In this document: one piece after another, positions 34,442 through 34,565 of the stretch
How the letters are laid out: the number at the start of each line of letters is the position of its first letter
Numbering within the stretch: the stretch's first letter is position 1
Virus record (IMG/VR): IMGVR_UViG_3300043434_000734
Span: 1-64,000 of that record
Reading direction: 5' to 3' (one strand)
Source: a virus
Taxonomy: Duplodnaviria; Caudoviricetes
Length of the DNA stretch: 64,000 nucleotides
The notes under the pieces: generated by a model
What the model was told of the DNA's origin: nothing
Databases searched by the model: none
What the model saw: the letters and a program-made list of their open reading frames with translations, nothing else
Made by a program: the position numbers and the translations under genes

Positions 34442-34510
34442 AAAAAAATGGGGAACCCACACCACCGAGTTCCCCTACCAACTAAACTTGTATTTCTACA
34501 AGTCCCGTCC
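34442..34510 (-). ncRNA. Candidate ~70-nt structured small RNA or attenuator leader
   Basis: TATTTATT motif (34515-34522), then GGACG-GGACUUGUA-GAAA-UACAAGUUU (GNRA hairpin), a linker, GGGGAACUC/GGGUUCCCC stem and AU7. Unusually GC-rich for an intergenic region here. Confidence 0.55.
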
Positions 34511-34565
34511 TTTTAATAAATATAACATAAACATTTAACAAAGTAAAATATTAATCAAATATTTT

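What the first reader, a model, noticed from the sequence alone, without database searches (positions are those of the whole stretch)
34442..34522. Self-contained small transcription unit: motif, GNRA hairpin, terminator
Seen: TATTTATT is followed 4 nt later by GGACGGGACUUGUAGAAAUACAAGUUUAGUUGGUAGGGGAACUCGGUGGUGUGGGUUCCCCAUUUUUUU. This has a 9-bp stem with a GAAA tetraloop, a 9-bp GC-rich terminator stem and U7, and no ORF. It is a GC-rich island in AT-rich intergenic DNA directly upstream of primase. Inference: either a late ~70-nt sRNA (for example a boxB-like protein-binding RNA, decoy or anti-defence RNA) or an attenuator that controls read-through into primase and gp46/47. I do not recognise it as a known family.
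Basis: partly seen in the sequence, partly recalled or inferred. Interest (0 to 1): 0.7.

Follow-up and report, generated by a model that had tools for sequence, protein, structure and literature searches.

The report
Conserved small RNA upstream of phage primase
A roughly 70-base structured RNA gene with its own promoter-like boxes and terminator sits before the primase gene of a group of uncultured freshwater giant phages; its folds are kept by compensating mutations, so it is a real and undescribed phage small RNA whose job is still unknown.

Summary
On the minus strand, 34524-34442, TATATTTAT is followed by a long GAAA-capped hairpin (P1), a GG linker, a GC-rich terminator hairpin (P2) and U7. 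There is no conserved ORF.

It is not an ordinary terminator. The element is present in 79 of 80 related IMG/VR phage loci and in more distant relatives, always between a RuvC-like gene and the primase gene. It occurs once per 230-335 kb genome. All 9 P2 pairs and 4 upper P1 pairs covary (99% of cells paired; slid controls 33-59%). Three parts are almost invariant: the lower P1 stem with its G.U wobbles and G.R mismatch, the GUUGG linker and the GUGGUG terminator loop.

Two upstream boxes, ATTTTAC-N18-TATATTTAT, keep a fixed spacing. A separate promoter-like region precedes primase, even in relatives that lack the RNA. There is no Rfam, tRNA or cellular-genome match.

Best reading: an independently transcribed trans-acting small RNA of a new family, whose terminator also insulates primase. 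A candidate target is the CA-rich leader of the phage sigma-factor mRNA. Its most enriched 6-mers are the complements of the two RNA motifs, but this is not conserved in all clades. A NusG-dependent attenuator is less likely.

The parts
34543..34549 (-). -33-like box ATTTTAC
   Evidence: Conserved (1.2-2.0 bits per position) in 23 distinct upstream sequences. It lies at a fixed distance (N18) from the second box, while the spacer between them is poorly conserved (sequences).
34516..34524 (-). -7/-10-like box TATATTTAT (TATAYTTAW in relatives)
   Evidence: Near-invariant in relatives. The distance to the conserved GACGG varies from 5 to 8 nt (3 in one sequence). It resembles the Flavobacterium sigma-A -7 box TAnnTTTG, which lies at -12..-5 (PMC9723704), and this puts the predicted start about 1-3 nt before GGACGGG. 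The same TATTTAT[AT] box is enriched just upstream of gene starts.
34480..34509 (-). P1 hairpin. Lower stem GAC.GGGA / UUU.GUU, invariant in sequence, with tandem G.U pairs and a G.R mismatch. Variable, covarying upper stem. A-rich loop (GAAA at 34493-34496).
   Evidence: The 4 upper pairs show changes on both sides (for example col 10-28: GC 14, AU 10, UA 8, CG 3, GU 3). The lower G.U pairs are kept as G.U in 35-37 of 38 sequences.
34476..34479 (-). Unpaired linker GG(UA). Together with the preceding GUU it forms the invariant GUUGG.
   Evidence: GUUGG is invariant in the 34 distinct copies of A1. It is changed only in distant variants.
34450..34475 (-). P2, the intrinsic terminator hairpin. 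The 9-10 bp stem covaries completely. The loop carries the invariant GUGGUG (34460-34465).
   Evidence: all 9 pairs change on both sides and 98.8% of cells are paired. The loop GUGGUG is invariant in A1. The core UGGUGU survives in the most distant variants, G003, G008, G009 and G011.
34442..34448 (-). U-tract (U7; U9 in most relatives)
34396..34441 (-). Separate T-rich, promoter-like region directly before primase (T9-ATC-N3-4-T6-8, then a TATAWTWY-like box).
   Evidence: Kept in relatives that have no RNA element: G004, G015 and L080. The promoter function is inferred.
33454..34395 (-). DnaG-type primase gene (downstream neighbour)
   Evidence: phrog_47, E = 3.6e-37. Weak Pfam hits to DNAG_N and Toprim.
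34566..35171 (-). RuvC-like resolvase gene (upstream neighbour)
   Evidence: phrog_159, E = 2.7e-8. In G004 the same gene (82% identity) is followed by another ORF and no RNA, so the RNA is not an obligate partner.
25347..25376 (-). Candidate trans target, not established: the 5' leader of the phage sigma-factor gene (24537-25346). It carries CCACACCAC at 25351-25359, complementary to GUGGUGUGG of the P2 loop.
   Evidence: This is the only intergenic CACCAC on the mRNA-sense strand of the window. The gene matches phrog_351, sigma factor, E = 8e-53.

Best explanation
The element is a gene for a small structured RNA of about 68-72 nt, a new family confined to one clade of uncultured freshwater jumbo phages. 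These phages probably infect Flavobacteriia or other Bacteroidota.

Inferred mechanism: transcription starts 1-3 nt before GGACGGG, driven by a two-box promoter (ATTTTAC-N18-TATATTTAT). It ends at the P2 intrinsic terminator, which also shields the primase operon from upstream transcription. Primase has its own promoter-like region.

Shown by comparison: the RNA folds into a long 5' hairpin (P1) and the terminator hairpin (P2). The stems are maintained by compensatory change.

Inferred function: the working surfaces are the parts that never change. These are the G.U-rich lower P1 stem, the GUUGG linker and the GUGGUG loop displayed on P2. The RNA most likely acts in trans. One route is pairing of its G/U-rich motifs with C/A-rich sites near start codons, as known Bacteroidota sRNAs do. 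The best candidate target found is the leader of the phage sigma-factor mRNA. The other route is binding a protein that reads these motifs.
For: Structure and conservation:
- 79 of 80 primase-linked relatives carry the element, as 33 distinct sequences.
- On a MAFFT alignment not fitted to the structure, 97.7% of cells are paired, 13 of 19 pairs change on both sides, and slid controls give 33-62%.
- With distant members added, 99.2% of cells are paired.
- RNAalifold predicts the same fold independently.
- The fold is strand-specific because of the G.U pairs.

Distribution:
- One copy per genome: 84.6 bits in the window against 13.8 for the next hit. There is one strong match each in G001 and G002 (next hits E 0.009-0.06, chance or coding), and a single match at E<=1 each in G003, G005, G006 and G007.
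- Synteny RuvC-like, RNA, primase is kept down to 62% primase identity.

Transcription signals:
- The promoter-like boxes are conserved at fixed spacing, with a variable distance to the RNA.
- The -7 box resembles the Flavobacterium sigma-A consensus.
- The same box is enriched at gene starts.
- An independent promoter-like region before primase persists where the RNA is absent.

Mode of action:
- Bacteroidota sRNAs (GibS, MasB, BatR, FopS) pair near start codons (PMC11697453).
- The most enriched 6-mers in 52 distinct sigma leaders against 949 other leaders are ACCAAC (25x), TACACC (24x) and ACACCA (21x). ACCAAC and ACACCA are the reverse complements of GUUGGU and UGGUGU.
- Leader shuffles reach the observed complementarity 0 times in 300, and permuted seeds 2 times in 200.
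Against: No transcript data exist, so the 5' end, the discreteness of the RNA and its timing are all inferred.

Upstream transcription from the RuvC-like gene has no other terminator. The RNA could therefore also arise as a 3' UTR product.

Conservation of both strands of the lower P1 stem, with G.U never replaced by G-C or A-U, points to protein or tertiary recognition more than to a simple pairing seed.

The sigma-leader link is weak in several ways:
- The leader is C-rich in general.
- The related leaders are not independent samples.
- In a four-genome comparative ranking it is 2nd of 123 orthogroups, with Fisher p = 0.0037, which is not significant after correction.
- Clade G005/G006/G012 has a canonical RNA but no such leader motif.

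Host targets could not be examined.
Confidence: 0.6

Rival explanations
1. Cis-acting leader or attenuator. Transcripts starting at the element's promoter, or coming from the RuvC-like gene, stop at P2 unless a phage factor is loaded at P1 or at the conserved 5' sequence. Candidate factors are the NusG-like protein at 15274-15798 or an N/Q-like protein. The loaded polymerase then reads through into primase and the recombination genes.
For: The element always lies directly upstream of primase. The hairpin-plus-terminator layout resembles leaders of NusG-paralog (LoaP-type) operons (own knowledge). The phage encodes a NusG-like protein (phrog_6386, E = 1.7e-20). The 10 searched relative records that carry a canonical element (46 bits or more) also carry that gene. 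The NusG-less clade has only divergent or no elements.
Against: A separate promoter-like region lies between the terminator and primase, and it is kept in G004, G015 and L080, which lack the RNA. No alternative antiterminator pairing is apparent: the P2 arms turn over completely while the upstream segments are invariant. G015 has the NusG-like gene but no element. G003 and G011 lack the gene yet keep a hairpin plus a UGGUGU-loop terminator. The NusG-less records look like one clade, so the co-occurrence amounts to about one evolutionary event. This reading does not explain an invariant terminator loop. P2 looks like a strong terminator (9-10 GC-rich pairs plus U9).
Confidence: 0.2
2. An ordinary 3' end of the RuvC-like gene: a Rho-independent terminator preceded by a stabilising hairpin, with no function of its own.
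For: No other terminator follows the RuvC-like gene. G004 has a plain terminator at the equivalent place before primase.
Against: A plain terminator needs a stem and a U-tract, not an invariant hexaloop, an invariant linker, or a lower stem whose G.U pairs and mismatch are frozen while every other pair turns over. Conserved promoter-like boxes at fixed spacing lie between the stop codon and the hairpin.
Confidence: 0.1
3. A DNA-level or replication element: an origin-associated primer or R-loop transcript, or a hairpin recognised in single-stranded DNA by the neighbouring primase.
For: The element sits inside the replication and recombination gene block. It has G-rich conserved segments flanked by very AT-rich DNA.
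Against: The structure depends on G.U pairs that exist only in the minus-sense RNA, and the fold is much weaker on the other strand. GC skew in the complete relative G002 follows gene orientation and shows no inflection at the element. G004 and G015 replicate without it.
Confidence: 0.05

Closest known systems
Trans-acting base-pairing sRNAs of Bacteroidota (GibS, MasB, BatR, FopS; PMC11697453)
   Same: Short transcript with its own promoter, a 5' hairpin and an intrinsic terminator. Conserved unpaired motifs. In the known cases, pairing occurs near start codons in a phylum without Hfq or Shine-Dalgarno-led initiation.
   Different: No sequence or Rfam relationship. This one is phage-encoded. 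The conserved motifs are G/U-rich and one sits in the terminator loop. No target or protein partner is established.
Phage-encoded regulatory sRNAs in general (for example DicF, IsrK, AgvB and sRNAs seen in jumbo-phage transcriptomes)
   Same: A small non-coding gene embedded between phage protein genes and ended by a terminator.
   Different: The known examples come from Proteobacteria phages or prophages and are mostly Hfq-dependent. None matches here: the AgvB model hit is a chance match on the other strand at 34595-34641, 15 bits against a gathering score of 56.
Leader RNAs of processive antitermination systems (lambda nut/boxB, HK022 put, LoaP-type NusG-paralog leaders)
   Same: Promoter-proximal hairpin(s) upstream of a terminator, in a genome that encodes a NusG-like protein.
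   Different: The P1 loop is not conserved. The conserved loop is that of the terminator itself. The NusG-like gene and the element do not strictly co-occur. Primase appears to have its own promoter.
Ordinary Rho-independent terminators
   Same: P2 has every feature of one and surely terminates.
   Different: Loop, linker and upstream hairpin are under sequence-specific selection across genomes.

Membership tests
Any Rfam 15 family | Covariance-model score at or above the family's gathering threshold | tested here: not met
   There are no hits in the whole window at gathering thresholds. At E<=10 on 34300-34700 there are only chance hits. The one that overlaps the element (HPnc0260, 28.3 bits against a gathering score of 59) is on the opposite strand, and the rest lie elsewhere in the stretch.
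tRNA / tmRNA | Cloverleaf or tmRNA architecture detectable by ARAGORN | tested here: not met
   No tRNA or tmRNA genes are found in the window.
Intrinsic (Rho-independent) terminator | GC-rich stem-loop followed directly by a U-tract on the transcribed strand | tested here: met
   34475-34450 plus U7. The stem and U-tract are kept in all relatives. Termination itself was not measured.
Trans-acting sRNA | Own promoter | tested here: inconclusive
   Two conserved boxes lie at fixed spacing and resemble the Flavobacterium -7 box, and the motif is enriched at gene starts. No transcription start-site data exist.
Trans-acting sRNA | Conserved accessible seed with a conserved complementary site in target mRNAs | tested here: inconclusive
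   The seeds are conserved. The sigma-factor leader is enriched for their exact complements. However, it ranks 2nd of 123 with an uncorrected p of 0.0037, and the motif is absent in one clade.
Trans-acting sRNA | Discrete stable transcript in infected cells | not testable with these tools
   No transcriptome is available for these uncultured phages.
Riboswitch or attenuator with alternative pairing | Conserved, mutually exclusive antiterminator helix that overlaps the terminator arm | tested here: not met
   The P2 arms turn over completely while all upstream unpaired segments are invariant, so no upstream partner covaries with P2 (inspection of A1 and A2).
NusG-paralog (LoaP/RfaH-type) recruitment leader | Co-occurrence with the specialised NusG paralog | tested here: not met
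   G015 has the gene but no element. G003, G016, G010 and G011 have divergent elements without the gene.
NusG-paralog (LoaP/RfaH-type) recruitment leader | Factor-dependent read-through of the downstream terminator | not testable with these tools
   This needs in vitro transcription or term-seq.
lambda boxB-type nut hairpin | Sequence-conserved GNRA-like loop recognised by an N-type peptide | tested here: not met
   The P1 loop varies: GAAA, GUAA, UUAAAA, CGAAAAA and AAUUUAU all occur.

The most novel reading that the evidence does not exclude
The RNA is a phage-encoded riboregulator of the phage's own sigma factor. Its two invariant G/U motifs, GUUGGU and UGGUGU, pair with ACCAAC and ACACCA in the short CA-rich leader of the sigma-factor mRNA at the start codon. 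This would set the level or timing of phage-directed transcription: an RNA feedback loop on a viral transcription programme, in a phylum where translation starts without Shine-Dalgarno pairing.
Probability: 0.2. Interest if true: 0.7.

Novelty: new member of a known kind. Interest (0 to 1): 0.55.

Why it matters
Very few regulatory RNAs are known from phages of Bacteroidota, and none from their jumbo phages. This element has comparative support as strong as that of curated RNA families, a clear architecture and a compact set of invariant nucleotides that can be mutated. It therefore gives a ready experimental handle on post-transcriptional control in a large, abundant and uncultured freshwater phage group. 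If the sigma-factor link holds, it would show an RNA layer in the temporal programme of a giant phage. If instead a protein reads the frozen G.U stem and the GUGGUG loop, it would point to a new RNA-protein pair.

Tried and rejected
- Rfam at gathering and permissive thresholds: nothing.
- tRNA/tmRNA search: nothing.
- blastn of the locus against cultured phages: no match. The closest cultured primase, from Flavobacterium phage immuto (34% identity), and a 484-kb uncultured phage have no element.
- A loose DNA pattern scan of viral contigs returned only chance matches: 0 of the 80 loci listed and searched passed the model, out of 119 matching stretches.
- A tight pattern scan of 185,579 species genomes gave 24 hits. 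Only one scored with the model (25 bits), and it lies inside a 1064-aa ORF of a Puia MAG with many broken pairs. There is therefore no cellular copy.
- Second copies in the same genome: the weak hits in G001 and G002 are coding or chance.
- Antisense micro-ORF (MG..HH..): present in 27 of 38 sequences, but the frame shifts with 1-nt indels and it is absent from whole subclades, so it is not coding.
- Origin of replication: no GC-skew signal.
- RNA partner of the neighbouring RuvC-fold protein (OMEGA-like idea): the protein is an ordinary-sized resolvase homolog, and G004 and G015 keep it without the RNA.
- Strict NusG co-occurrence: broken in both directions.
- Considered from memory only, with no support in the sequence: a Shine-Dalgarno mimic (GGUGGUG is one mismatch from GGAGGUG, and only GUGGUG is invariant), a pairing site for tRNA 3' ACCA ends, a G-quadruplex, a CRISPR-repeat mimic, and a CsrA-type decoy.

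Full report
**What is there.**
The feature lies on the minus strand, the coding strand of nearly all genes in the window. Between the stop codon of a RuvC-like resolvase gene (34566-35171, phrog_159) and the ATG of a DnaG-type primase gene (33454-34395, phrog_47) lies a 170-nt AT-rich spacer. It contains, in order:
- ATTTTAC (34549-34543)
- 18 poorly conserved bases
- TATATTTAT (34524-34516)
- 6 bases
- GACGGGACUUGUA-GAAA-UACAAGUUUAGUU, which forms hairpin P1 (34509-34480)
- GGUA
- GGGGAACUC-GGUGGUGU-GGGUUCCCC, which forms hairpin P2 (34475-34450)
- A and U7 (34448-34442)

RNAfold gives -28.4 kcal/mol (z = -3.39; 0 of 200 shuffles fold as well) and pairs the conserved 5' GAC.GGGA with UUU.GUU. 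The terminator scan picks out P2. The opposite strand folds 10 kcal/mol less well and loses the lower stem, because that stem depends on G.U pairs.

**Is it more than a terminator?**
The primase protein retrieved 80 IMG/VR loci (70-85% identity), several from contigs of 300-335 kb. Of these, 79 carry the element at the same place, as 33 distinct sequences.

On a plain MAFFT alignment the proposed structure has 97.7% of cells paired. Thirteen of 19 pairs change on both sides. Sliding the partners by 1-3 columns drops pairing to 33-62%. With more distant members added through a covariance model the figure is 99.2%, and RNAalifold finds the same fold on its own.

The pattern of conservation is the informative part:
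- All nine P2 pairs and the four upper P1 pairs turn over freely.
- The lower P1 stem is frozen in sequence. Its G.U pairs stay G.U in 35-37 of 38 sequences, and the mismatch stays G.A or G.G.
- The linker GUUGG is invariant in the 34 close copies.
- The P2 loop GUGGUG is also invariant in those copies.

A terminator has no need of any of this.

**Distribution.**
- The model finds one copy in the window (84.6 bits; the next hit scores 13.8).
- It finds one strong match each in G001 and G002; their second hits (E 0.009-0.06) are coding or chance. G003, G005, G006 and G007 each have a single match at E<=1.
- More distant phages (primase 62-68% identical) keep it between the same two genes, with altered 5' ends (AGGCGGGAA) or linkers.
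- The most distant recognisable versions (G003, G011) keep a 5' hairpin and UGGUGU in the terminator loop.
- G004 (complete genome), G015 and L080 have no element or only a remnant. G004 has a plain terminator instead.
- There is no match in Rfam, among cultured phages or in one genome per prokaryotic species.
- The nearest cultured primase is from a Flavobacterium phage. The promoter-like box resembles the Flavobacterium -7 box. The host is therefore probably a member of the Bacteroidota. This is an inference.

**Transcription signals.**
Anchoring 23 distinct upstream sequences on the TATAYTTAT box shows a second conserved box, ATTTTAY, at a fixed distance, with a weakly conserved spacer between them. 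The distance from the box to GACGG drifts between 5 and 8 nt, and is 3 in one sequence. That is the behaviour of a promoter and a transcript start, not of RNA structure.

Flavobacterium sigma-A promoters carry TAnnTTTG at -12 to -5 (PMC9723704). By that rule the start falls 1-3 nt before GGACGGG, which gives an RNA of about 68-72 nt.

The box TATTTAT[AT] occurs 23 times in the gene sense and 4 times in the other sense. Fourteen of the 23 copies lie within 45 nt upstream of an ATG, so it is a genuine start-associated signal of this phage. The relative G002 repeats a similar pair of boxes, a TTTTCGGCAACT box upstream of a TATATTT-type box, 64 nt before a gene about 3 kb downstream of the primase region. 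The distance from TTTTAC to the second box differs there (13 against 18 nt). Timing (early, middle or late) cannot be decided from sequence.

Between P2 and the primase ATG lies another conserved T-rich, TATA-like region. It is retained in the relatives that lack the RNA. Primase therefore appears to have its own promoter, and P2 acts as an insulator.

**How it may work.**
No antiterminator alternative is visible: nothing upstream covaries with the P2 arms. A metabolite- or structure-switch attenuator is therefore unlikely.

Factor-dependent antitermination by the phage NusG-like protein (15274-15798, phrog_6386) was tested by co-occurrence in 15 relative records. The results were:
- Ten records have both the gene and a canonical element.
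- G015 has the gene and no element.
- G003, G016, G010 and G011 have divergent elements and no gene.
- G004 has neither.

The gene-less records look like one clade, so this is about one evolutionary event, and there are exceptions in both directions. I keep this reading at 0.2.

**Candidate target.**
For a trans-acting RNA I looked for complements of the invariant motifs.
- In the window, the only intergenic CACCAC in mRNA sense lies at -5 to -10 of the phage sigma-factor gene (24537-25346, phrog_351). It forms 9 bp with the loop region.
- In 51-52 distinct sigma leaders from relatives, CACCA or CCAAC occur in 41%, against 4.5% of 400 other leaders.
- Shuffled leaders never reach the observed complementarity (0 of 300), and permuted seeds reach it 2 times in 200.
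- The most enriched 6-mers against 949 leaders are ACCAAC, TACACC and ACACCA. ACCAAC and ACACCA are the reverse complements of GUUGGU and UGGUGU.

Against this:
- The leader is C-rich overall.
- The related leaders are not independent samples.
- A four-genome comparative ranking puts the sigma factor 2nd of 123 orthogroups, with an uncorrected p of 0.0037.
- The G005/G006/G012 clade keeps a canonical RNA but has no such leader.

I treat this as a lead with a probability of about 0.2. The frozen G.U pairs of the lower stem suggest that a protein or a tertiary contact also reads the RNA.

**Verdict.**
This is a real, strongly supported and undescribed small RNA family of uncultured jumbo phages. 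It is best read as an independently transcribed sRNA whose terminator doubles as an insulator before primase. Its function is unresolved.

A further note describes the CCGGCAACT box (e1-5392483).

Noticed in passing
window 24537-25376 (-): The phage-encoded sigma-70-family factor (phrog_351) has a short, unusually C/A-rich leader: 26% C in the last 20 nt, against 9% in other leaders. The motifs ACACCA and ACCAAC recur across relatives.
   Followed up: partly
window 34396-34441 (-); L376 1420-1483; L386 1440-1490: A T9-ATC-N3-4-T6-8 tract followed by a TATA-like box lies directly before the primase ATG. It is conserved even in relatives without the RNA, so it is probably the primase promoter.
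   Followed up: partly
G002 204696 and 207970 (loci L193): A TTTTCGGCAACT box about 26-28 nt upstream of a TATATTT(T)AT box occurs twice, once before the RNA and once 64 nt before a gene. It is absent from the window's copy.
   Followed up: partly
L381 1440-1600 (-) (G010): In this relative the element's GGUUGG is followed by UCAA-CCAACC, which forms a perfect small hairpin in place of P2. There is no U-tract, and a GC-rich insert follows.
   Followed up: no
L385 1340-1450 (+) (G011): A larger variant before primase: a promoter-like TATATTTTA, GAGGACUGAA, a different long hairpin, then a terminator whose loop holds UUGGUGU. The covariance model missed it.
   Followed up: no
window 15274-15798 (-): A NusG-like gene (phrog_6386, 'transcription antiterminator') is present in some clades of these phages and absent from others, including the complete genome G004.
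   Followed up: partly
window 55230-55345 (-): A second structured intergenic stretch lies after the gene at 55345-57777. It carries AAGGAGGUGA and a terminator-like hairpin, and shares no motif with the RNA studied here.
   Followed up: no
window 1-12000: GC content is about 40% here, against about 31% in the rest of the window. This stretch holds long repetitive fibre-like ORFs.
   Followed up: no
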